DNA of 33,224 bases from positions 25,023 to 58,246 of the forward strand of contig JBBDZS010000023.1 in assembly GCA_040900015.1 (NCBI GenBank), read 5' to 3'. Below, piece after piece: positions 928-29,090 of this stretch (position 1 is the first letter of the stretch; every line of letters starts with the position of its first letter). The translations under genes and the position numbers were made by a program. The notes beneath the pieces were generated by a model. The model did not search any database, had not been told where the DNA came from, and worked only from the letters and a program-made list of their open reading frames with translations. The DNA comes from Minisyncoccota bacterium. GTDB taxonomy: Bacteria > Patescibacteriota > Minisyncoccia > Phycocordibacterales > UBA9973.

Positions 928-3897
928 ATGAGTTCTGTTTTCAAGGAGGAGTATAAAAAGCTAAATAGTGCCCAGAAGGACGCCGTCAATTCTTTAGAGG
1001 GCCCGATAATGGTGGTGGCTGGTCCCGGCACGGGTAAAACCCAAGTGCTCGCTCTCCGTATTGCCAATATTCTAGAGAAGACCGATATAAAAGTAGACGG
1101 AATTTTATGTCTCACTTTTACTAATTCCGGCGTGGAAGCGATGAAAGATCGCTTGCGTTGTTATATAGGCGAAGCAGGGAACGAAGTAAATGTTTTTACC
1201 TTTCACGGTTTCGGGATGAAAATCATCGGAGAGCACTATAAAGTCCTAGGTCTTAATGAAGCACCGGAACTTTTGGAGGATACTGACCGAGCGATATTTT
1301 TTGATCAAATAATTAATGAAAATGATTGGCAGCACTTGCGTCCGCGTGGTAACAACATGCGATATTTTCAAGATCTCAAATCTCTAATTTCTCTTTTGAA
1401 GCGGGAGAGAATTTCCATAGAGGATTTTGAAGCGGGAATAGAAAAAGAAATAAATTATTTGGAGCGAGACGAAAGTAGCCGTTCGACCAGAGGAGCGAGC
1501 AAGGGCCAGCTGAAAAAAGAAGCACTAAATGCCATAGATGGGCTAAAACGAAGCAGGGAGATAATAAAATTTCTGAGGCTTTATGAAGACACAAAAAAAG
1601 AAAGGAATCTTATGGATTATGATGATGTTTTGGAGTCGTTGGTCTATATTGTGGAAAATTCCGACGATGCCGTTTCCTCGGTCCGTGAGAGATACCTATA
1701 TGTTCTTATAGACGAACACCAAGATTCTTCGCGCGTGCAGAACGAATTCCTGACCCGAGTGTGGGCCTCTGTAGAGCGGCCGGATATTTTCGTGGTCGGA
1801 GACGATCGGCAGCTTATATATGGTTTTTCTGGAGCTTCCATTGAGTATTTTGCAGGTTTCAAAAAAACCTTCCCGGATGCCAAGCTTATAACTCTTACTG
1901 ACAATTATCGTTCGACGCAGGTAATTTTAGATGCTTCTCATGCATTATTGGAGAGCGTATTAACCAAAGATAAACTAGTTAGCCAAAACAAAGAAAAGCA
2001 CCCCATAGAACTAGTAGATACAGAAACGCCGGAAGAAGAAATTGTTGCTGCTGCGCAAGATATTAAGTTGAAAATTTCCGCCAAAGGCGGATCCGCCTCT
2101 GGCGGAGAAAAATCCCTGAATCCAAACGACATCGCCATACTTGTGCCCAAAAATCGTCAGGTGCGCACGGCTATGGAGATATTACACAATGAAGGCGTGC
2201 CGGTCGGAGGGCTAGAGGCTCTTAGTCTTTTCGATCAAGATGAAACCTTAGCACTAATGCGGGTATTAAAAGTTATTAATAACGGAGATGTCGCCTCATT
2301 AGCGATGTCTTTTTTTGATAAAACCTCAGGTATAACACCTCTAGAAGCACACCAGTTTATAAGCAAAGAAAACATGCGTCAATTCTCTATTGAGAAAATT
2401 AGCGGAAAGTCTCTGACTCTTTTCCCTTCGGACAATAACGCAGAAAAATGGATTGCAAAACTTTTAAAATGGAAAAGTGATTTTGAAAATAATAATATGC
2501 AAAAGGACTTGAAATCCTTAATCCAGATGGTCGGTAAAGAATTACTTGAAGGGAAGGAAATAGAAAAAAAACTTGTTTCCGGAAAAATAATTTTGGACAC
2601 CGTGACTGATCTTTTCTCAAAGCAAGAAGAAAAAAATCCAGACATTACCATCGGTTGGTTTTTGGAATATTTAGAGAGGCTGGTTTCTTCGAATGAGTAT
2701 ATACCACTACTTGCCCCTTCTGGTGAAGGCGTCAAAGTGCTTACCATGCATTCTTCCAAGGGATTGGAATTCGATTATGTCTGGATAGCCCATATGGACG
2801 AGAAGTCCCTCTCAGGTGGTAGGCGTATGGGCCTGACCTTACCTGAGAGCATCGCGGAGAAGGTGGAAGAGCGCGACATTGATGCTATTAAGCGCAAGCT
2901 ATATGTGGCCATAACCCGGGCCAAAAAGTTTTGCAGGCTATCTTATTCCCGCGAGTCAGTCAAAGGGAGCGAACAGGAGCTCGCTAAGATAATTGCGGAA
3001 TTGCCGTCCGAAGTTTTCGAGAAGGTGAGCATAAGTGCCGGTAAGAAAAGAATTATTAAAAATACAAATTTACCTAAGCTACTAAAGTTGGTCGCAGATA
3101 AGTATAAAGATAGGTATGTCTCGGTATCACTTCTTAATAATTTTTTCGAATGTCCCTGGAAATGGTATTTTGAAAATTTACTACAGATGCCCAAGGATAA
3201 AATCGAAGTTCTCGAGTTTGGCATTGTAGTCCACGCGTCGATTGATAGAATATTAAAAATGAAAGATATTCCATCCGAGGAAAAAGTCGAGGATATAGTC
3301 ACGGAAGAAGTTTTAAGGCGGGAGTTTGGAGATGCCAGGGGTCGAGTGCGGATGGGTAGAGAAATTATAAATATTGTTTCATCCTGGGTTGAGAATCGTC
3401 TTCCAGAAATAAAGCTTAGCCGTAAGACCGAGGAGAGTATAACTGTAAATAATTCCGATTATCCCCATCTCAAAATTTATGGCAAGATTGACTTGATTGA
3501 AAACTTAACTGGAAAAGAAGCCAGAGAAGTAAGAGTGACAGACTTCAAAACCGGGAGCGTGCGAAGAAAGTCCGAAGTTGAGAAACTGGATGAGGAGGGC
3601 AGAATGAGTGGAAACTTAAGACAGCTGGCTATGTATTCGTATCTCCTGCGAGAGAATCCTAAATGGCGAGTGGATGCGAGAGAGAGCCGACTAGAATTTC
3701 TGGAAGAGAAGGATTTTGATAAGCGTATTTATAACACGGTGATAACGGTGAGAGAAATAGAGTTACTTAAGAAGGATATTAAGGACTACGATGAACTGGT
3801 AAAAAGCGAGGATTGGATAAATAGAGAGTGTCACTACAATTCCTACGGCAGAGGCACCGAATGCGAGTATTGCCAACTCGCAGAGATTTATAAATAA
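928..3897 (+). CDS. UvrD/PcrA-family SF1A helicase with C-terminal PD-(D/E)XK nuclease domain
   Basis: AGPGTGKT, LTFTN, LIDEHQD, VGDDRQLIYGF, NYRS, TMHSSKGLEFD and LYVAITRAK. C-terminal SVS..FECP, GKIDLIE, TDFKTG, QLAMY and a Cys cluster. Confidence 0.9.
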   Translation: MSSVFKEEYKKLNSAQKDAVNSLEGPIMVVAGPGTGKTQVLALRIANILEKTDIKVDGILCLTFTNSGVEAMKDRLRCYIGEAGNEVNVFTFHGFGMKIIGEHYKVLGLNEAPELLEDTDRAIFFDQIINENDWQHLRPRGNNMRYFQDLKSLISLLKRERISIEDFEAGIEKEINYLERDESSRSTRGASKGQLKKEALNAIDGLKRSREIIKFLRLYEDTKKERNLMDYDDVLESLVYIVENSDDAVSSVRERYLYVLIDEHQDSSRVQNEFLTRVWASVERPDIFVVGDDRQLIYGFSGASIEYFAGFKKTFPDAKLITLTDNYRSTQVILDASHALLESVLTKDKLVSQNKEKHPIELVDTETPEEEIVAAAQDIKLKISAKGGSASGGEKSLNPNDIAILVPKNRQVRTAMEILHNEGVPVGGLEALSLFDQDETLALMRVLKVINNGDVASLAMSFFDKTSGITPLEAHQFISKENMRQFSIEKISGKSLTLFPSDNNAEKWIAKLLKWKSDFENNNMQKDLKSLIQMVGKELLEGKEIEKKLVSGKIILDTVTDLFSKQEEKNPDITIGWFLEYLERLVSSNEYIPLLAPSGEGVKVLTMHSSKGLEFDYVWIAHMDEKSLSGGRRMGLTLPESIAEKVEERDIDAIKRKLYVAITRAKKFCRLSYSRESVKGSEQELAKIIAELPSEVFEKVSISAGKKRIIKNTNLPKLLKLVADKYKDRYVSVSLLNNFFECPWKWYFENLLQMPKDKIEVLEFGIVVHASIDRILKMKDIPSEEKVEDIVTEEVLRREFGDARGRVRMGREIINIVSSWVENRLPEIKLSRKTEESITVNNSDYPHLKIYGKIDLIENLTGKEAREVRVTDFKTGSVRRKSEVEKLDEEGRMSGNLRQLAMYSYLLRENPKWRVDARESRLEFLEEKDFDKRIYNTVITVREIELLKKDIKDYDELVKSEDWINRECHYNSYGRGTECEYCQLAEIYK
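2077..2106. repeat. 30-nt double-hairpin element, copy 1 (in frame, SAKGGSASGG)
   Basis: TCCGCC-AAA-GGCGGA-TCCGCC-TCT-GGCGGA; identical to 6769-6798. Confidence 0.95.
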
Positions 3898-3900
3898 CTC

Positions 3901-3929
3901 TTGTAATTTAATTTTTTTATATATAAGAT
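3901..3929 (+). promoter_or_regulatory. Sigma70-type promoter of trhO (leaderless type)
   Basis: TTGTAA (3901-3906), 17 nt, TAAGAT (3924-3929), 6 nt, ATG at 3936. Confidence 0.55.
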
Positions 3930-3935
3930 AGCTTT

Positions 3936-4979
3936 ATGTACAAGAAGGTAAACAAAAAGTCGAAAGTTGAGCTTTTGAAGGATTTGGAGATGGAGAACTT
4001 CAAGAGGAAAACTATTTCTTTCTATAAATATGTGAAGATAGAGGATCCGAAAGTAATGCGGGACTTTTTGTTTGATAAATTATCCGAGCTGAAGTGCCTC
4101 GGTAGGATATATGTAGCGAGCGAAGGCATAAACGCGCAGATGAACGTGCCGGAACATAACTGGGAGGCGTTTGATTCTTTTATTCAATCAATGCCCGAGT
4201 TTACAGGAGTGTCATATAAGCTGGCAGTAGAAGAGAGAGAAAAGTCCAGCTTTATAAAATTGATCGTGAAGGTACGACAAAAAATCGTGGCCGACGGGCT
4301 CGAAGATAATACTTTTGATCCGTCGAATACCGGAGAATATGCTACAGCCGAGGATGTAAACTCCATGATAGAGCGAGGGGCGACGGTAATAGACATGCGC
4401 AACATGTACGAGGCGGCCATCGGACATTTTGAGAACGCGAAGATAATGAACGTGGATACTTTTCGCGAACAGCTTAAGAAAGTTCATGATATGTTCAAAG
4501 ACAAGAAAGATGAGGAAGTGCTACTGTACTGCACAGGAGGGATCCGCTGCGAGAAAGCGTCCGCCTGGATGAAGCACACCGGTTTTAAAAATGTGAAGCA
4601 CATTAAGGGAGGTATTATCGAATATGCCCATAGGGCGAAGGAGAAAGGGTTGGAGAACAAATTCAAAGGTAAGAACTTCGTCTTCGACGAGAGAATGGGA
4701 GAGAAGGTGGGGGATGAGGTCATAGCATACTGTCAGGCTTGCGAAAAGGTGAAGTGCGACAATTATATCCACTGCAAGAACGAGTCCTGTCATGTGCTCT
4801 TCATATGCTGTCAGACCTGCGAAAAGAGACAGAAGGGTTACTGTGGGAAAGTATGCATGATTTGTGACAAGTTTCCTAAAAAACTAAATCAGGTTTTGGT
4901 TGGCTCCGACCGTCAGAGGCACGAAAATCAATACCGAAAGAACTACAAAAGAGTTAAAGCCTTAAACTATTTGAAATAA
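3936..4979 (+). CDS. trhO: Rhodanese-domain tRNA uridine(34) hydroxylase (YceA/TrhO, UPF0176)
   Basis: SFYKY, GRIYVASEGINAQ, IDMRNMYE..IGHF, YCTGGIRCEKAS, GKNFVFDER and a Cys-rich C terminus. Confidence 0.88.
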   Translation: MYKKVNKKSKVELLKDLEMENFKRKTISFYKYVKIEDPKVMRDFLFDKLSELKCLGRIYVASEGINAQMNVPEHNWEAFDSFIQSMPEFTGVSYKLAVEEREKSSFIKLIVKVRQKIVADGLEDNTFDPSNTGEYATAEDVNSMIERGATVIDMRNMYEAAIGHFENAKIMNVDTFREQLKKVHDMFKDKKDEEVLLYCTGGIRCEKASAWMKHTGFKNVKHIKGGIIEYAHRAKEKGLENKFKGKNFVFDERMGEKVGDEVIAYCQACEKVKCDNYIHCKNESCHVLFICCQTCEKRQKGYCGKVCMICDKFPKKLNQVLVGSDRQRHENQYRKNYKRVKALNYLK

Positions 4980-4985
4980 AGGCGT

Positions 4986-6116
4986 CTAGCGTATGACACC
5001 GTCGAAATTTTTTGTGGTTTCTGTTTCGAGTTTTTTGTGCACTTGGTCTATCTCTTCCGCAGTCAGCGTCCGCTCGAGCGAGCGATAGGTGATGCGGTAT
5101 GCGTAGCTAAGTTTATCTTCTCCGAATTTTTCCGCGTTTTCATATTTATCAAGGAGTGCCACCTCTTCTACGATTCCAGGCGCTGTTTCCCTTACAAAGT
5201 CGAAATAGTCATTCGGTATGAACTCCTTGCTGACTATGAAAGAAATATCTCTCATAACAGGTGGATATTTACTGACTTCGACAAATTTATGCCCCAGCTT
5301 GAGTTGTTTTTTTACTCTCTCATCTTCGGACCATAGAAGCCGGATGTCGGGCAATTGCATACTGGCAATAGCCAAGCGTTCCAAGCCGAAGCCGAAGGCC
5401 CAACCATGATAGCCTTCGAGACCCAAATTAGATAGTACGCTTTTCCTTACTATTCCAGAGCCAAGCATTTCGATCCACTGTCCGTTGATTTCTGCTTCCA
5501 TCTCGAAACTTGGATCCGTATAAGGAAAGTTGTGGTCGTAAAATCGGAAATTAATATCACCAAAGATGCTAGTCGCGATTTCTGTCAGCGCTTTTTTGAG
5601 ATCTTCGGGAGTTATTGTCTTTTTATCATCTGGGGCAATGAGCCACCCTCCGAATTGATGGAAAACATTCATATGTCGAGCATCGATTTCGTCTTTGCGG
5701 TAAACCTTGCCATAACATATTGCCCCCAATGTCTCTTTATTTTCAATTCGCTTTTTTATGTCTGGATGATTAAGATAGTAGTACCAAAATACAGTATCAT
5801 GCGTGCGAAGCACATTTTTTTTATCCACATAATAAGTATCCGATTCACTACGAGCGGGGTGCCCTTCCGGCATATTGAATAAATCAAATAAAATATTGGT
5901 AGGCACGATCTCCGGTATTTTTATATCATCGAAATCTTTGAGGGAGGAAACTTCTTTGGCTTTTTTGACGATTTCTGCAAGGGGACTACTGGAAGTCCGG
6001 GCTAGGTCCGGCATAGAAAGATACCTTTTTAATCTCATAGAATGGACATCGGTCTTTTCTTCGAGTTCCTTTCTAAAAGAAGCTTCTTCGGGAGATATTA
6101 TGTCGTAATTTGCCAT
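4986..6116 (-). CDS. pheS: Phenylalanyl-tRNA synthetase catalytic domain fused to a C-terminal FDX-ACB anticodon-binding domain (single-chain type)
   Basis: FDLFNMPEGHPARSESDTYY, LRTHD, YRKDEIDARH..FHQ, FPYTDPSFE and AFGFGLERLA..PDIRLLWS, followed by YPPVMRDISF...YRITYRSLERTLT. Confidence 0.9.
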   Translation of the reverse strand: MANYDIISPEEASFRKELEEKTDVHSMRLKRYLSMPDLARTSSSPLAEIVKKAKEVSSLKDFDDIKIPEIVPTNILFDLFNMPEGHPARSESDTYYVDKKNVLRTHDTVFWYYYLNHPDIKKRIENKETLGAICYGKVYRKDEIDARHMNVFHQFGGWLIAPDDKKTITPEDLKKALTEIATSIFGDINFRFYDHNFPYTDPSFEMEAEINGQWIEMLGSGIVRKSVLSNLGLEGYHGWAFGFGLERLAIASMQLPDIRLLWSEDERVKKQLKLGHKFVEVSKYPPVMRDISFIVSKEFIPNDYFDFVRETAPGIVEEVALLDKYENAEKFGEDKLSYAYRITYRSLERTLTAEEIDQVHKKLETETTKNFDGVIR

Positions 6117-6202
6117 TCTTTTAGTTTAAATAAAAATGGCTAAAAAGTAAAGGTTTATCAACATATTTTGCTCAATTTACACTAGCAAACACTATCTATT
6201 TT

Positions 6203-6211
6203 TGCTATAAT
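6203..6211 (+). promoter_or_regulatory. Extended -10 promoter of gyrB
   Basis: TGcTATAAT, 8 nt before ATG 6220; no SD. Confidence 0.6.
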
Positions 6212-6219
6212 ACCCCCAC

Positions 6220-8328
6220 ATGGCAAAAGATAAAGAAGGCAAAGGCGGGCATCAATATGACGCATCGGATATATCGGTTTTAGAGGGCCTGGAACCCGTC
6301 AGGAAGCGTCCTGGGATGTATATTGGTACGACGGGCCCGGAAGGTCTGCACCACCTTGTTTGGGAGATTTTCGACAACTCACGCGACGAAGCAATGGGTG
6401 GTTTTTGTGATGATATTGAGGTGGTGTTATTGCCTGGCAATAGGGTTCGGGTAGCGGACAATGGCCGAGGTATCCCCGTAGATATGCACAAGAAGACCAA
6501 GGTCTCAGCGCTCGAGACGGTGATGACGACTCTCCATGCCGGAGGAAAATTCGGCGGTGAAGGATATAAAGTTTCTGGAGGTCTGCACGGAGTAGGTGCT
6601 TCGGTGGTCAACGCACTTTCTATTTATTGTCGGGCCGAAGTGCATCGAGATGGTGGCAGGTATGTGCAGGAATATTCTCAAGGTAAGAAGAAATTCGCAG
6701 TCAAGAAAGTCGCTGCATCCAAGAATCACGGAACAATAATAACTTTCGAACCTGACCAGGAAATTTTTTCCGCCAAAGGCGGATCCGCCTCTGGCGGAAA
6801 AGATGATGGGATCAAGTTTGATTGGAACACTATCGTCGCTCACATCCGCCAGCAGGCGTATCTGGTAAAAGGATTACGCATTTCTATAATCGACGCCCGC
6901 GAGTGGCAAAGCGGAAAAGGTTTGACCGAGGAGGATGTATTTTATTTCCGGGAGCTCGGGCTCGAAGTTCCATCAGTATCTTTCTATTTCGAAGGCGGAC
7001 TGATATCCCTCGTGAAGTATTACAATAAGTTCCAAAAGCCTATACAAGATCATATTTTTTATGTGGAAAAAGAAATGGATGGAGTGGGGGTTGAGATAGC
7101 GCTCCAATATGTGGACGATATTGTAGATAGGATATTTCCTTTTGCAAACAATATTTTTACCGCAGAGGGTGGCACTCATGTGACTGGATTTAAAACCGCG
7201 CTCACTCGAACCCTCAATACTTATTGTAAGAAGAATGAAATGATGAAGGAGTCCGAAGGGGGATTTACTGGCGACGATGTGCTCGAGGGTCTTACCGCCG
7301 TTATCTCGGTCAAGCTTCAGGAAATACAATTCGAAGGCCAGACCAAGGGCAAACTCGGCTCTATGGAGGCGCAGGGTGCAGTGGCGACCATCTTCGGTGA
7401 GGCCTTTACTAGTTTTCTAGAGGAGAACCCCGACGAGGCGAAATCTATAATAAACAAATCAATACTAGCTCTTAAGGCGAGAAAGGCAGCCAAGGCAGCT
7501 AAGGATTCCGTGCTTAGGAAGGGCGCACTCGAAGGTATGACTCTCCCGGGCAAACTGGCAGATTGTCAGTCGAAAAGTGCAGAAGAATCCGAATTATTCC
7601 TTGTAGAGGGAGACTCCGCAGGAGGCTCCGCCAAACAAGGCAGAGATAGGAGAACCCAAGCGATACTTCCGCTCCGCGGAAAGATATTGAATGTGGAGAG
7701 AGCTCGCATCGACAAGATGCTCGCATCGAAAGAAGTACGGTCTTTGGTTATAGCTATGGGAACATCGATCGGAGACACCTTCGATATTTCCAAGGTTCGC
7801 TATCATAAGATAATAATCGCCACGGATGCGGATGTGGACGGTTCGCATATCCGTACGCTTTTACTTACTCTTTTTTATAGATACTTCCGTGAAGTTATCG
7901 ATGCAGGATATATTTACATCGCCCAGCCACCGCTATATAAGATTAAGAAGGGCAAGGAGATATCTTATGCATATACTGACGAAGAAAAGGTAAAGATCAT
8001 CGGCAAGGGCGCGGATGTGAGTGAGATTCAGGAAGCTGAAAGTCCCGAACAAAGTGAGGGATTAGAAACCGAAAGAGAGGAGGCGCCTGAAGAAGTCGCA
8101 AAAAAGGCAAACAAAATACACATCCAGCGCTTCAAAGGTCTCGGAGAAATGAATCCGGAAGAATTGTGGGAGACGACCATGGATCCTGCGCACAGAGTGC
8201 TTAAGAAAGTAAATATTGATGATGCCGAAGAGGCGAATAAAGTTTTCGATATTCTCATGGGCTCCGAAGTTCCTCCTCGAAAGTCCTTTATTCAATCAAA
8301 CGCTAAATTGGCGGAAATTGATATCTAG
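6220..8328 (+). CDS. gyrB: DNA gyrase subunit B
   Basis: LEGLEPVRKRPGMYIG, DNGRGIP, LHAGGKF, SGGLHGVG, LVEGDSAGGSAK, PLRGKILN, TDADVDG and QRFKGLGEMNP. Confidence 0.97.
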   Translation: MAKDKEGKGGHQYDASDISVLEGLEPVRKRPGMYIGTTGPEGLHHLVWEIFDNSRDEAMGGFCDDIEVVLLPGNRVRVADNGRGIPVDMHKKTKVSALETVMTTLHAGGKFGGEGYKVSGGLHGVGASVVNALSIYCRAEVHRDGGRYVQEYSQGKKKFAVKKVAASKNHGTIITFEPDQEIFSAKGGSASGGKDDGIKFDWNTIVAHIRQQAYLVKGLRISIIDAREWQSGKGLTEEDVFYFRELGLEVPSVSFYFEGGLISLVKYYNKFQKPIQDHIFYVEKEMDGVGVEIALQYVDDIVDRIFPFANNIFTAEGGTHVTGFKTALTRTLNTYCKKNEMMKESEGGFTGDDVLEGLTAVISVKLQEIQFEGQTKGKLGSMEAQGAVATIFGEAFTSFLEENPDEAKSIINKSILALKARKAAKAAKDSVLRKGALEGMTLPGKLADCQSKSAEESELFLVEGDSAGGSAKQGRDRRTQAILPLRGKILNVERARIDKMLASKEVRSLVIAMGTSIGDTFDISKVRYHKIIIATDADVDGSHIRTLLLTLFYRYFREVIDAGYIYIAQPPLYKIKKGKEISYAYTDEEKVKIIGKGADVSEIQEAESPEQSEGLETEREEAPEEVAKKANKIHIQRFKGLGEMNPEELWETTMDPAHRVLKKVNIDDAEEANKVFDILMGSEVPPRKSFIQSNAKLAEIDI
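6769..6798. repeat. 30-nt double-hairpin element, copy 2 (in frame, SAKGGSASGG)
   Basis: Identical to 2077-2106; the flanking T-run and A-run extend the outer stem. Confidence 0.95.
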
Positions 8329-27302: not shown

Positions 27303-29084
27303 ATGAACTCTCCCGTTCAAAAAATTAAGGAGAGGCTTTCAATCGAAGAAGTGGTCTCTTCTTATGTAAAGTTGGAGAAAATGGGTCAGAACCTCAAGGC
27401 TCGTTGCCCGTTCCATAATGAGAAGACCCCTTCGTTCTTCCTTTCGCCTGCGCGGGGTAGCTATTATTGTTTTGGTTGTGGCGCAAAGGGCGACATATTT
27501 ACTTTCGTAGAAGAATTCGAGGGTCTAGATTTCAAAGGCGCTTTGAAGCTCCTAGCAGAGCGTGCTGGTGTGCCGCTTGAAGCATATACCAAAGAATCAA
27601 AAGAAGCTGAAAATGAAAAGGAAAAGCTATATAGGGCGATGGAAGAGGCGACTTTGTTCTTTGAGAAGAATTTGAAAGAGAATCAGGAAGTATTGGAATA
27701 TTTAAAGTTACGCGGATTAAATGAGAAAAGTATAGAAGATTTTAGGTTAGGTTTTGCTGTTTTAGATTGGCGCAAGCTATACGATTTCTTGAAGTCGAAA
27801 AATTTTACTGACTCTGAAATTGAAGGAGCAGGTTTGGCCAAAAAACCCGAGGATAGGAACAAGGCAATGTATGATAGGTTTCGTGGAAGAATAATGTTTC
27901 CGATTATGGATACGAGTGGCCGGGTGATAGCTTTCTCCGGGCGTATTTTCGAAGATGACGGTAAGAGCGCAAAATATTTGAACTCACCAGAGACGCCGAT
28001 TTTTAGTAAGCATGCAGTGCTTTATGGGATGGATAAAGCGAAAGAGTCCATTAGGAAGAATAATTTCTCGATATTGGTGGAAGGGCAGATGGATTTGGTT
28101 TTGTCTCATCAAGCAGGCTTCAAGAATACTGTTGCGACTTCGGGGACTGCTCTATCTGAATCTACCATTAATAAGGAGAACGCAGTCAGCAATCTTGGTC
28201 TGCTTCGCCGTCTTTCTGGAAATATTGTTCTGGCATTTGATGCGGACAAGGCGGGGATAAATGCCACTCTCCGCGCAGGCAAAATAGCCCTATCGCTCGG
28301 CATGGATGTAAAGGTTGCTGACCTTCCGGAAGAGACCGACCCTGCCGACCTTATTCAAAAGGAAGGAGGGGGGGCATGGAAGGAGGCAATCCGTGGATCG
28401 AAACATTTGATCGAATTTATGCTTTCCAAAATTATAAAACAGACAGGCGGCGAAGAGCGAAAACTGGGACGAGAAATTAAGGAAAAAATATTACCTTATG
28501 TGGATTCGCTCGGTAGTTCGATAGAACAGATGTATTTTTTGAAAAAGATCAGCGAGTCCTCCAGCATACCCTTAGATGCGCTTAAGGAAGATCTGAAAAA
28601 AGTGGAGCAGGAATTAAAGTACGAAAAGAAGGAAAATGCCAGCGGTGGAGCAGACTTGCTTACGATTAAAAGAAAGGATTATATTTTACGCAGATTACTA
28701 GGTATTGTGCTCTGGCAAGAAGGTAAAACCGAGAAAGACATAGACATCGAAGCAGTTTTGTCTTCATTGGCTGAGATATTAAACATCGAAAAGGGGGAAG
28801 TATTGCGGGGCGCAGAAGAGAACAAGAATGATTTGATATTCGAAGCCGAAGTTTTTTACGGAGAAGGCGTAGACCTAAAAAAAGATTTATCAGAAATGCT
28901 TGGGAACCTGGGCGAAGAATATTTGAAAGAAGGGCTCCTCCGGAAAATGATGGAATTACAAGTAGTTGAAGAAAAAGGAGATTCGGTCGAATCTTCCAGA
29001 ATCTTGAAAGAGATAAGTGAAATTAACAATAAAATACAAGAGATTAAAAACGGTCGCTTTTCCGCCAAAGGCGGATTAGCCTAG
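27303..29084 (+). CDS. dnaG: DNA primase
   Basis: CPFHNEKTPSF..CFGC, DRFRGRIMFPI, KYLNSPET, VEGQMD and FDADKAG. Confidence 0.96.
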   Translation: MNSPVQKIKERLSIEEVVSSYVKLEKMGQNLKARCPFHNEKTPSFFLSPARGSYYCFGCGAKGDIFTFVEEFEGLDFKGALKLLAERAGVPLEAYTKESKEAENEKEKLYRAMEEATLFFEKNLKENQEVLEYLKLRGLNEKSIEDFRLGFAVLDWRKLYDFLKSKNFTDSEIEGAGLAKKPEDRNKAMYDRFRGRIMFPIMDTSGRVIAFSGRIFEDDGKSAKYLNSPETPIFSKHAVLYGMDKAKESIRKNNFSILVEGQMDLVLSHQAGFKNTVATSGTALSESTINKENAVSNLGLLRRLSGNIVLAFDADKAGINATLRAGKIALSLGMDVKVADLPEETDPADLIQKEGGGAWKEAIRGSKHLIEFMLSKIIKQTGGEERKLGREIKEKILPYVDSLGSSIEQMYFLKKISESSSIPLDALKEDLKKVEQELKYEKKENASGGADLLTIKRKDYILRRLLGIVLWQEGKTEKDIDIEAVLSSLAEILNIEKGEVLRGAEENKNDLIFEAEVFYGEGVDLKKDLSEMLGNLGEEYLKEGLLRKMMELQVVEEKGDSVESSRILKEISEINNKIQEIKNGRFSAKGGLA

Positions 29085-29090
29085 GGTTGA
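29061..29090. repeat. 30-nt double-hairpin element, degenerate copy 3, containing the dnaG stop codon
   Basis: TCCGCC-AAA-GGCGGA-TTAGCC-TAG-GGTTGA; first 16 nt identical to copies 1 and 2. Confidence 0.8.

What the first reader, a model, noticed from the sequence alone, without database searches (positions are those of the whole stretch)
2077..6798. Identical 30-nt double hairpin (SAKGGSASGG) in two unrelated genes
Seen: TCCGCCAAAGGCGGATCCGCCTCTGGCGGA occurs at 2077-2106 (helicase) and 6769-6798 (gyrB), 30/30 identical, in the same frame and orientation. It is two 15-nt hairpins, and the whole is also a near-dyad around GGATCC, so two folds are possible. Removing it leaves family-typical sequence: GyrB FEPDQEIF|KDDGIKFDW and helicase DIKLKI|EKSLNPNDIAIL. 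Both copies sit between a T-run and an A-rich run with no obvious target-site duplication. Inference: recent insertion at TT^RAA-like junctions, tolerated because it encodes a Gly/Ser linker in surface loops.
Basis: partly seen in the sequence, partly recalled or inferred. Interest (0 to 1): 0.85.

Follow-up and report, generated by a model that had tools for sequence, protein, structure and literature searches.

The report
Tiny double-hairpin mobile repeat inside genes
The two identical 30-base inserts are copies of a very small palindromic repeat that is scattered through this tiny genome and through many bacterial phyla, sits inside essential genes where it is mostly read as a harmless Ser-Ala-x-Gly-Gly loop, and has no transposase that I could identify.

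Summary
The 30-mer occurs 30/30 identical at 2077-2106 (UvrD/AddA-type helicase-nuclease) and 6769-6798 (gyrB). A third, half-decayed copy forms the end of dnaG (29061-29090).

It is not a two-gene curiosity. The 504-kb genome holds 11 exact and about 5 decayed doublets. The consensus is T-CCGCC-NNA-GGCGG-A / T-CCGCC-TNN-GGCGG-A.

- **Distribution:** the pattern occurs in 50 of 401 sampled genomes of the phylum, with 0 hits for the reversed control. A scan of species genomes gave at least 120 stretches carrying more than 25 phylum labels.
- **Structure:** each 15-nt unit keeps its own stem through compensatory changes (136/136 and 136/136 paired). The long dyad is not conserved (75/136).
- **Insertion:** copies lie at TTY^RAA sites, with no target duplication.
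- **Orthologues:** they show clean 10-residue gaps, different sites in different species, and in-frame decayed remnants at the same sites.
- **Reading frame:** frame 0 (S-A-x-G-G) dominates, 32 of 43. The target motif explains only part of this.

The three Y1/IS200-like genes of the genome carry their own private palindromes and are not linked to the element.

Verdict: a selfish, REP-like double-hairpin element. It is a new, minimal and unusually widespread variant of intragenic REPs and RPEs. How it is mobilised is unknown.

The parts
2077..2106 (.). Intact double-hairpin element (unit 1 at 2077-2091 with loop AAA; unit 2 at 2092-2106 with loop TCT). It lies in frame 0 of the helicase-nuclease gene and reads SAKGGSASGG.
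   Evidence: Orthologues lack it. The empty site in G020, G011 and G014 is ATT|GAA-like.
6769..6798 (.). Intact double-hairpin element, 30/30 identical to the copy at 2077-2106. It lies in frame 0 of gyrB between codons TTT (F183) and AAA (K194).
29061..29090 (.). Third copy. Unit 1 (29061-29075) is perfect. Unit 2 (29076-29090, TTAGCCTAGGGTTGA) is decayed. It lies in frame 0 at the 3' end of dnaG, and the TAG in loop 2 (29082-29084) is now the stop codon (...GRF|SAKGGLA*).
   Evidence: The sister species G001 ends ...KNGRYK* without it.
928..3897 (+). Host gene 1: UvrD/AddA-type helicase with a C-terminal PD-(D/E)XK nuclease (989 aa).
6220..8328 (+). Host gene 2: gyrB (702 aa).
27303..29084 (+). 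Host gene 3: dnaG primase (593 aa), whose C-terminal 7 residues and stop come from the element.
6766..6801 (.). Element plus its flanking target trinucleotides, TTT | element | AAA. The empty site in 27 relatives is TTY|AAA.

Best explanation
The two identical 30-mers are copies of a dispersed, selfish, REP-like miniature palindromic element.

**Anatomy.** The unit is a 15-nt DNA hairpin, T-CCGCC-NNA-GGCGG-A, with a 6-bp stem and a 3-nt loop ending in A. The usual form is two such units in inverted orientation with no spacer, 30 nt in all, with loops NNA then TNN.

**Shown.**
- Copies are inserted between TTY and RAA, without target-site duplication and in exact multiples of 15 nt.
- Insertion sites differ between congeneric species.
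- Old copies decay in frame, by loss of a unit and by point changes.
- Intact copies keep each stem through compensatory changes.
- The family is spread patchily over many phyla.

**Inferred.**
- Copies inside genes persist mainly when the element is read TCC GCC NNA GGC GGA, which gives a small flexible S-A-x-G-G(S/P)-A-x-G-G/W loop. The other two frames (PPxADPPxA and RQRRIRLWR) are selected against. TCAGCC-type units read TGA in frame 0 and survive only outside genes or at gene ends.
- The gyrB copy probably arose by a short-range copy event from the older helicase copy 4.7 kb away.
- Propagation probably goes through single-stranded hairpin DNA. The enzyme is not identified. The genome's own Y1/IS200-like transposases were tested as candidates and are not supported.
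For: **Family in this genome.** There are 16 perfect TCCGCC-N3-GGCGGA units and 0 for the reversed control. There are 74 perfect 6-bp/3-nt GC-rich hairpins against 19-23 in Markov shuffles, of which 24 have a TCCGCC or TCAGCC stem. There are 11 exact doublets plus decayed ones.

**Distribution.**
- 9 of 41 relatives' genomes including G000; 5 of 24 other genomes of the genus.
- 50 of 401 genomes of the phylum sample, with the reversed control giving 0 in all 401.
NCBI phylum labels for these: 38 CPR-type, 57 non-CPR, 25 unknown.
- 15 viral contigs.

**Structure.** The search pattern allowed unpaired combinations. Even so, positions 3/13 pair in 136/136 sites and positions 18/28 in 136/136. Positions 16/30 are Watson-Crick in 127/136, with 6 T-G and 3 C-A. 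The cross-unit partners of the long dyad pair in only 75/136.

**Target.** Pooled flanks at positions -3..-1 are T, T, Y. In the far set these are T 52%, T 78% and T+C 81%. Empty sites read TTY|AAA (gyrB), ATT|GAA (helicase), ATG|AAA and TTC|GAC.

**Mobility.**
- GyrB: 27 of 28 rows are empty. G000 is sister to the empty G001 with support 97.
- Elements of G007, G009, G022 and G024 sit in other genes (topA, argS, a Mg-chelatase-like gene, a purQ-like gene, gatA, gatB). G000 shows clean gaps at those places.

**Decay and re-use of sites.**
- G021 gyrB has an 18-nt remnant at the same codon boundary, and the tree needs 2 events.
- At the helicase site G042 has a 15-nt decayed unit. G001 has GCCTCTGGGG, a 9/10 match with chance about 3e-5 per offset.

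**Shared old copy.** The rsmI-like gene of G000 and G009 carries the element at the same site. Unit 2 differs by a compensatory T..A to C..G change.

**Frame.**
- In the far set, ORFs of at least 300 aa give frame 0 = 32, frame 2 = 8, frame 1 = 3.
- The share expected from TTY^RAA sites in G000 ORFs is 0.516, giving P = 0.0019.
- In G000, 8 of 10 intragenic copies are in frame 0.

**Local copying.** Both identical pairs in G000 are among the only 3 pairs less than 6 kb apart, out of 55 pairs (P = 0.002).

**Not an artefact.** Unitig-like contigs of the probable source run join each flank to the element at depth about 15. More than 20 other contigs of that metagenome carry similar elements.
Against: - No transposase, nickase or other mobilising gene could be tied to the element, so 'mobile' rests on comparative patterns alone.
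- No excised or empty allele was seen. Only contigs were available, no raw reads.
- Perfect stem conservation with variable loops, and retention at orthologous sites, would also fit a host-selected function. Examples are the rsmI-like gene and the poly(A)/CCA polymerases of L107 and L161.
- My search pattern demanded most stem bases, so decayed copies are under-counted and stem conservation is partly an ascertainment effect. The covariation test used only the positions left free.
- Same-site occurrences could be ancient insertions with repeated loss rather than re-insertion.
- About half of the frame-0 excess is expected from the target motif alone. Within G000 the excess is not significant (P = 0.067).
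- Phylum labels come from MAG record titles, and mis-binning cannot be excluded.
Confidence: 0.75

Rival explanations
1. REP/RAYT or IS200-type system: the element is a non-autonomous hairpin substrate mobilised in trans by one of the genome's Y1 (HUH) tyrosine transposases. The route would be single-strand 'peel and paste', which needs hairpin ends, a short 5' target word and no target duplication.
For: - G000 encodes three Y1_Tnp-like proteins (C14, C12, C16). Pfam PF01797 scores are 39 and 24.6 bits for two of them. NCBIfam REP_Tyr_transpos scores are 27-40 bits, below its cut-off of 80.
- The element has hairpins, no TSD, a TTY word on its 5' side and an inverted-dimer layout like REPINs.
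- One palindrome inside the Y1c gene has the same outer stem, TCCGCC...GGCGGA.
- In the Y1 tree, the clade of G000 Y1c plus one G007 gene, and a G007/G009 clade, contain only element-bearing genomes.
Against: - Y1 genes are present in 32 of 41 relatives' genomes, counting G000. Element-free G003 and G014 have 11 each and G008 has 8.
- G428 (6-7 elements, 98% complete) and G025 have no Y1 match.
- Each of the 12 Y1 genes whose flanks I listed is flanked by its own, different, roughly 25-nt palindromes. For the two G000 genes checked genome-wide, these palindromes are not dispersed.
- None of the 63 Y1 loci in the genus has an exact hairpin unit; 4 have a one-mismatch single unit, none adjacent to the gene. 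None of 17 Y1 loci in the five richest genomes has a unit within about 1.5 kb.
- Only 1 of 120 far element loci (861 kb) holds a Y1 gene.
- Labelling the Y1 tree by element presence shows no clustering: 95 of 500 shuffles do as well.
- There is no GTAG or CGTC tag.
Confidence: 0.12
2. Propagation without any dedicated enzyme. The very stable triloop hairpins would be copied by template switching, or by short-patch repair at TTY/RAA microhomology. Alternatively they would survive as nuclease-resistant single strands after DNA uptake and be built in at replication forks. The latter would also carry them between phyla that share a habitat.
For: - No linked gene was found.
- Every copy keeps TTY and RAA at its edges, which could serve as microhomology.
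- Identical copies are neighbours.
- The distribution across phyla is patchy, mostly in sediment, groundwater and freshwater MAGs by record title.
- Many other contexts in the same metagenome carry the element.
- That d(C-NNA-G)-type triloop hairpins are unusually stable and nuclease-resistant is recalled knowledge, not tested here.
Against: - Three bases of microhomology are very little for so regular a product.
- There is no experimental precedent in bacteria that I could find or cite.
- This route does not explain why the stem sequence itself is so constant across phyla.
Confidence: 0.15
3. Host-selected module. The hairpins, as DNA or as mRNA structure, or the S-A-x-G-G peptide, would be kept because they do something useful. 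Candidates are a protein-binding site, a pause or stability signal, or a flexible linker.
For: - Stems are kept by compensatory changes.
- Some copies are retained at orthologous sites in diverged genomes.
- Folding is strong: z = -4.4 as DNA and -5.8 as RNA.
Against: - Sister species and most of the genus do without the inserts in the same essential genes.
- The sites are unrelated proteins and intergenic DNA.
- Copies decay and are deleted.
- Presence across the phylum is patchy, 50 of 401 genomes.
- The codons never vary synonymously except through paired changes, so the protein sequence is not what is conserved.
Confidence: 0.08
4. Assembly, adapter or chimera artefact at both sites.
For: Contigs of the probable source run break inside the element, because it is a repeat about as long as the assembler's word. 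No contig spans it with at least 31 nt on both sides.
Against: - Each flank is joined to the element in contigs at the local depth.
- Reading frames and orthologue alignments are continuous on both sides.
- In G003 the helicase and gyrB matches lie a few kilobases apart on the same contig, C10.
- The same family occurs in hundreds of independent assemblies, including an isolate genome and a single-cell genome.
- In-frame decayed remnants exist in relatives.
Confidence: 0.01

Closest known systems
Intragenic REPs: GTAG- and CGTC-tagged palindromic repeats (Di Nocera et al. 2013, PMC3733652; I read section 15 and passages)
   Same: - Short dispersed palindromic units, often as inverted dimers only 1-2 bp apart in some species.
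- Some lie inside ORFs of known proteins, notably DNA synthesis and repair genes (UvrD/Rep helicase, Pol I, UvrA/B) and tRNA synthetases.
- REP ends can supply stop codons.
- Here the hosts are gyrA, gyrB, dnaG, polA, ftsK, a UvrD-type helicase and pnp. In far genomes they are DnaG, UvrA, UvrB, PolA and aaRSs. The dnaG stop comes from the element.
   Different: - No GTAG or CGTC tag.
- The unit is only 15 nt (6-bp stem, 3-nt loop), against stems of 5-13 bp and total lengths of 20-40 nt.
- The dimer has no spacer.
- No REP-flanked RAYT gene.
- The same stem sequence recurs across many phyla, whereas REP families are lineage-specific.
- About half of the copies in G000 are intragenic.
Rickettsia palindromic elements (RPE; Ogata et al. 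2000, as summarised in PMC10969869, passages read)
   Same: Selfish palindromic DNA inserted in frame in unrelated housekeeping genes of a reduced genome. It adds a peptide that the protein tolerates.
   Different: RPEs are about 100-150 bp, encode 30-50 residues and are confined to Rickettsia. The present element is 30 nt (10 residues) and is found across phyla.
Mitochondrial GC clusters and double-hairpin elements: yeast GC42 (PMC4478555, passages read); Allomyces DHEs (Paquin et al. 2000, seen only as a citation in that paper, otherwise recalled)
   Same: - Tiny GC-rich hairpin elements (about 30-80 nt) in AT-richer genomes.
- Substitutions concentrate in loops while stems are conserved.
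- Insertion polymorphism between close relatives.
- Units merge and shuffle.
- No known transposase.
   Different: They are organellar. GC42 has a putative AG target-site duplication, whereas this element has none. The sequences are unrelated.
IS200/IS605 'peel-and-paste' elements and their miniature derivatives
   Same: Hairpin ends, insertion next to a short specific word, no target duplication, seamless presence or absence.
   Different: No tnpA with matching hairpins was found. The element is symmetric, with no spacing between the hairpin foot and its end. The genome's IS200-like units carry other palindromes.

Membership tests
REP / REPIN (RAYT-mobilised repetitive extragenic palindromes) | Short imperfect palindrome, dispersed in many copies | tested here: met
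   There are 16 perfect units and 11 exact doublets in 504 kb. The unit is 15 nt, below the usual 20-40 nt.
REP / REPIN (RAYT-mobilised repetitive extragenic palindromes) | Two units in inverted orientation form the common (mobile) form | tested here: met
   Loops are NNA then TNN in nearly all of 145 doublets, which means inverted units.
REP / REPIN (RAYT-mobilised repetitive extragenic palindromes) | Conserved GTAG (or CGTC) tetranucleotide at one end of the unit | tested here: not met
   The flanks are TTY and RAA. No GTAG or CGTC is present. The definition is taken from PMC3733652.
REP / REPIN (RAYT-mobilised repetitive extragenic palindromes) | A RAYT (Y1) gene flanked by the same REP sequence | tested here: not met
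   The 12 Y1 genes whose flanks I listed are flanked by other, private palindromes. No exact unit occurs in 63 + 17 Y1 loci.
REP / REPIN (RAYT-mobilised repetitive extragenic palindromes) | Predominantly extragenic | tested here: not met
   In G000, about 10 of about 17 places lie inside genes.
Classical MITE | Terminal inverted repeats plus a target-site duplication | tested here: not met
   The element is itself an inverted repeat, but filled and empty sites show no duplication.
IS200/IS605-derived miniature element | Hairpin ends, no TSD, insertion 3' of a fixed short word | tested here: inconclusive
   Hairpins are present, there is no TSD, and there is a TTY preference. The preference is mirrored on both sides, and the cleavage chemistry cannot be tested here.
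IS200/IS605-derived miniature element | A cognate tnpA whose element ends carry the same hairpins | tested here: not met
Rickettsia palindromic elements | Palindromic element of about 100-150 bp of an RPE family, in Rickettsia | tested here: not met
   The length is 30 nt and the sequence is different. Only the behaviour is alike (PMC10969869, passages read).
Known RNA family (Rfam) | Match at the family's gathering score | tested here: not met
   There are 0 matches at gathering score in the whole window. Around 6769-6798 there are only chance hairpin hits of 9-17 bits, against thresholds of 38-171.

The most novel reading that the evidence does not exclude
The 30-nt double hairpin is the smallest self-propagating DNA element yet seen in bacteria. 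On this reading it is a pan-bacterial 'dumbbell' parasite that encodes nothing and has no dedicated transposase. It would be copied by host replication or repair, or picked up as nuclease-resistant hairpin DNA. It would move between phyla that share a habitat, seeding new 10-residue loops in essential proteins, mainly housekeeping and DNA-metabolism proteins.
Probability: 0.2. Interest if true: 0.85.

Novelty: new variant of a known kind. Interest (0 to 1): 0.62.

Why it matters
- **Reduced genomes are still colonised.** Even the most reduced bacterial genomes (0.5 Mb, almost all coding) carry selfish DNA, and it sits inside their most essential genes.
- **A very small, sharply defined case.** The element is 15-nt units, a TTY^RAA target and no duplication, and it recurs with the same stem in dozens of phyla. 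That makes the open question of how REP-like hairpins spread testable with a simple substrate.
- **A source of new protein loops.** It continually adds 10-residue loops and can rewrite gene ends, as in dnaG.
- **A practical hazard.** Short-read assembly graphs break at the element. It also adds spurious-looking 10-residue indels to marker genes such as gyrB that are used for phylogeny.

Tried and rejected
- **Y1/RAYT link.** Searched in G000, 40 relatives and the five element-richest genomes. I fetched 60 Y1 loci, built a tree and inspected flanking palindromes. No association was found. It is kept only as a minor rival.
- **Rfam.** Nothing.
- **Sequencing runs.** One DNA holder, the probable source, kept only as contigs; no RNA holder listed. 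Laying those contigs showed no joint that skips the element. Contigs drop rare variants, so excised alleles could not be assessed.
- **Literature.** Six full-text searches, including the literal hairpin strings. None found a description of this bacterial element. The strings matched only cloning primers.
- **The search of earlier findings.** Closed.
- **Long-dyad fold.** It is the minimum-energy structure of these copies, but I rejected it as the conserved structure on covariation.
- **Bias towards DNA-metabolism hosts.** This is striking in G000, where I named 6 of 9 hosts from motifs. Only gyrB, dnaG and the helicase were checked with Pfam. Among far hosts it is only 4 of the 18 that have a Pfam assignment. 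I do not claim it as a property of the element.
- **Organism name.** I did not determine it.
- **Not run.** The metagenome-contig scan, complex prediction, the protein atlas and the protein-database searches, because they were not needed for the question.
- **First submission.** I resent it with that field filled in and nothing else changed.


Full report
**1. Observation**

The 30-mer TCCGCCAAAGGCGGATCCGCCTCTGGCGGA is present at window 2077-2106 and 6769-6798, both on the + strand, with no mismatch. None of 100 dinucleotide-preserving shuffles gave any match.

Both copies lie in frame 0 of long ORFs and read SAKGGSASGG. ORF 928-3897 is a UvrD-type helicase with a C-terminal PD-(D/E)XK nuclease. 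ORF 6220-8328 is GyrB (Pfam).

A scan for the half-unit found a third copy at 29061-29075. It is followed by a decayed second unit, TTAGCCTAGGGTTGA. Together they form the last seven codons and the stop of dnaG.

**2. A family, not a pair**

The window is part of a 503,951-bp, 23-contig, 88%-complete genome, G000.
- It holds 16 perfect TCCGCC-N3-GGCGGA units and none of the reversed control.
- Of 74 perfect GC-rich 6-bp/3-nt hairpins, 16 have the stem TCCGCC and 8 have TCAGCC. Markov shuffles give 19-23 such hairpins.
- There are 11 exact doublets, about 5 decayed ones and one solo unit.

From 145 doublets in G000, relatives and distant genomes, the consensus is T-CCGCC-NNA-GGCGG-A followed directly by T-CCGCC-TNN-GGCGG-A. 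These are two units in inverted orientation, flanked by T-T-Y on the 5' side and R-A-A on the 3' side.

**3. Which structure is conserved**

The minimum-energy fold of the two window copies is one long dyad. The values are -13.2 kcal/mol as DNA (z = -4.4) and -28.4 kcal/mol as RNA with flanks (z = -5.8).

Covariation points to a different fold. The pattern used for the collection scans left positions 3, 13, 16, 18, 28 and 30 free to mispair. Among 136 distinct sites:
- The within-unit partners 3/13 and 18/28 are complementary in 136/136 each (C-G or A-T).
- Partners 16/30 are Watson-Crick in 127/136.
- The cross-unit partners of the long dyad are complementary in only 75/136.

The conserved structure is therefore two independent 15-nt hairpins. 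Stems occur as TCCGCC, TCAGCC, CCAGCC and CCCGCC, always with the matching 3' half.

**4. Insertions, target and history**

*GyrB.*
- 27 of the 28 relatives' rows that cover the site have a clean gap. The nucleotide alignment shows TTY|AAA in the empty sites and TTT|30 nt|AAA in G000.
- In a GyrB tree G000 is sister to the empty G001 (support 97).
- The one exception, G021, lies in another subclade. It carries an 18-nt in-frame remnant at the same codon boundary: ATCGCTAAAGATGGA plus ACA, reading IAKDGT.
- The tree needs two events for this distribution.

*Helicase.*
- None of 27 rows has the peptide.
- The empty site in G020, G011 and G014 is ATT/ATA/GTT | GAA/AAA.
- G042 has a decayed 15-nt unit, TCCGCCCAAAGCAGG, at the same boundary.
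- The sister G001 has GCCTCTGGGG there, a 9/10 match to unit 2 with chance about 3e-5 per offset.
- The helicase copy is therefore probably older than the G000/G001 split, or the site is re-used.

*dnaG.* G001 ends ...KNGRYK*. G000 reads ...KNGRF|SAKGGLA*, with the stop inside loop 2.

*Elements in relatives.*
- Elements of G007, G009, G022 and G024 lie in other genes: topA, argS, a Mg-chelatase-like gene, a purQ-like gene, gatA and gatB. G000 shows clean gaps at those places, for example ATG|AAA and TTC|GAC.
- One site is shared by G000 and G009, in an rsmI-like gene in frame 2. There unit 2 differs by a compensatory T..A to C..G pair.

No filled site shows a target duplication.

Within G000 the only two identical pairs are C23:27099/31791 (the two window copies) and C7:15464/21098. 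Both are among the only three pairs less than 6 kb apart, out of 55 pairs (P = 0.002). This suggests short-range copying or local homogenisation.

**5. Reading frame**

All three frames on both strands of the TCCGCC-type element are open.

In 120 distant loci (126 sites), sites inside ORFs of at least 300 aa split as follows: frame 0 = 32, frame 2 = 8, frame 1 = 3. At a cut-off of at least 200 aa the split is 40, 10 and 7.

The target motif is itself frame-biased. TTY^RAA junctions in G000 ORFs fall 427, 311 and 89 in frames 0, 2 and 1, a frame-0 share of 0.516. The excess over that share is still significant in the far set (P = 0.0019). It is not significant in G000 alone, where 8 of 10 copies are in frame 0 (P = 0.067).

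- Frame 0 gives S/P-A-x-G-G-S/P-A-x-G-G/W.
- The other frames give PPxADPPxA or RQRRIRLWR.
- TCAGCC units give TGA in frame 0. In G000 they sit between genes, at gene ends or in frame 2.

Against a solved GyrB (6zt3_A) the insert is a gap right after the GHKL fold. An AlphaFold2 model built on 14 sequences has mean pLDDT 67.6, which is moderate. It places residues 185-201 in coil, with pLDDT below 50 at 186-196.

**6. Distribution**

- The exact doublet pattern occurs in 9 of 41 relatives' genomes including G000. In the genus it is found in G007 (about 12 copies), G009, G018, G022 and G024.
- It occurs in 50 of 401 genomes sampled across the phylum, or 45 of 338 high-quality genomes. Counts reach 22 forward matches (G232). 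The reversed control gave 0 in all 401.
My estimate of the chance expectation for a 42-bit pattern in about 1.2e12 positions is well below 1.
- NCBI phylum labels of those 120 loci are 38 CPR-type candidate phyla, 25 unknown and 57 others. The others include Pseudomonadota 13, Omnitrophota 10, Ignavibacteriota 6, Bacteroidota 6 (among them the isolate Marivirga aurantiaca) and Planctomycetota 5.
- Fifteen viral contigs also match.
- In a Kiritimatiellae MAG the doublet is the core of a longer repeat.
- Pfam was run on 20 of the 36 distant frame-0 hosts of at least 250 aa. 18 of the 20 have an assignment:
  - DNA metabolism: DnaG, UvrA, UvrB, Pol I.
  - tRNA-related: four tRNA synthetases, two poly(A)/CCA polymerases, TGT, TsaD.
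  - Metabolic and other: PurA, PGK, transketolase, FemAB, an amylase, a metallo-beta-lactamase-fold protein.
- The two poly(A)/CCA polymerases, from two Patescibacteria MAGs, carry the element at the same site.

**7. Who moves it**

The natural candidate was a Y1 (HUH) transposase. G000 has three, with weak RAYT similarity. The tests went against it.
- Y1 genes are in 32 of 41 genomes, counting G000. There are up to 11 copies in element-free G003 and G014.
- G428 and G025 have elements but no Y1 match.
- Each of the 12 Y1 genes whose flanks I listed is bracketed by its own different palindromes of about 25 nt, an IS200-like layout. For the two G000 genes checked genome-wide, these palindromes are not dispersed.
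- No exact hairpin unit lies in 63 Y1 loci of the genus or in 17 Y1 loci of the five richest genomes.
- Only 1 of 120 distant element loci holds a Y1 gene.
- A Y1 tree shows no clustering by element presence: 95 of 500 shuffles do as well.

Two small clades restricted to element-bearing genomes, and one Y1c-internal palindrome with the same outer stem, remain weak leads.

**8. Artefact check**

- The only run that holds the stretch is the probable source, and it is kept as contigs.
- Its contigs break inside the element: 1700-2104, 2079-6796 and 6769-7200. That is expected for a 30-nt repeat.
- Each flank is joined to the element at depth about 15.
- No joint skipping the element was reported.
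- More than 20 other contigs of that metagenome carry similar elements.

Together with the independent assemblies and the decayed in-frame remnants, an artefact is excluded for practical purposes.

**9. Comparison with what is known**

The nearest precedent is the survey of GTAG- and CGTC-tagged REPs (PMC3733652; section 15 and passages read). It reports:
- intragenic REP singletons and dimers, some only 1-2 bp apart;
- a notable share in DNA synthesis and repair genes and in tRNA synthetases;
- REP ends that supply stop codons.

RPEs of Rickettsia (passages in PMC10969869) and the mitochondrial GC clusters and double-hairpin elements (passages in PMC4478555) behave alike.

The present family differs in several ways. 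It has no tag, a minimal 15-nt unit, a spacer-less dimer, no REP-flanked RAYT gene, a TTY^RAA target without duplication, and the same stem across many phyla. Six literature searches found no description of it.

I therefore file it as a new variant of a known kind. Confidence is 0.75 that it is a selfish, mobile REP-like element. The mechanism of movement remains open.

Noticed in passing
L069:1588-1617 (G011, helicase orthologue): The same helicase gene carries a different 30-nt GC-rich palindromic in-frame insert in another species. The insert is CCTGCCCGACCAGACGGTCGTTCGGGCGGG, reading PARPDGRSGG, and lies about 40 residues upstream of the G000 site. A second family of 30-nt inserts may exist.
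   Followed up: partly
L064:1291-1319 and 2021-2045; L066:1265-1289, 1668-1696, 1969-1991; L238:789-813, 1502-1526: The 12 Y1 (IS200-like) genes whose flanks I listed are bracketed by their own private palindromes of about 25 nt. G000's Y1c gene also has such palindromes inside its reading frame, reading LVRDKA and LVPDKA. G007 has two identical Y1 copies 2.2 kb apart.
   Followed up: partly
G024:C3:30738-34130 and G015:C3:69849-69919: GyrB of G024 is interrupted in one open frame of 1133 aa by about 1.27 kb between residues about 470 and 463 of the query. That looks like an intein. GyrB of G015 has an extra stretch of about 23 residues near residue 228.
   Followed up: no
L108:4563-4752 and 6384-6572: In a Kiritimatiellae MAG the double hairpin is the core of a longer repeat of roughly 190 nt, present at least twice 1.8 kb apart. 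Related flanks (cataggaattt...caatccgt) recur in a Verrucomicrobia MAG (L167).
   Followed up: partly
window 2077-2106 and 6769-6798: Unitig-like contigs of the source run end exactly inside the element. Such 30-nt repeats are break points and possible mis-join points in short-read MAG assemblies.
   Followed up: partly
L139:4444-6939 (Campbellbacteria MAG): One pheT-like ORF of 832 aa carries two separate double-hairpin inserts. It also has an NlpC/P60 domain match inside the synthetase (residues 385-454).
   Followed up: no
G000 C2:636-686: An intergenic cluster of four partly decayed units, two doublets 6 nt apart. It resembles the clustered arrays described for REPs.
   Followed up: no
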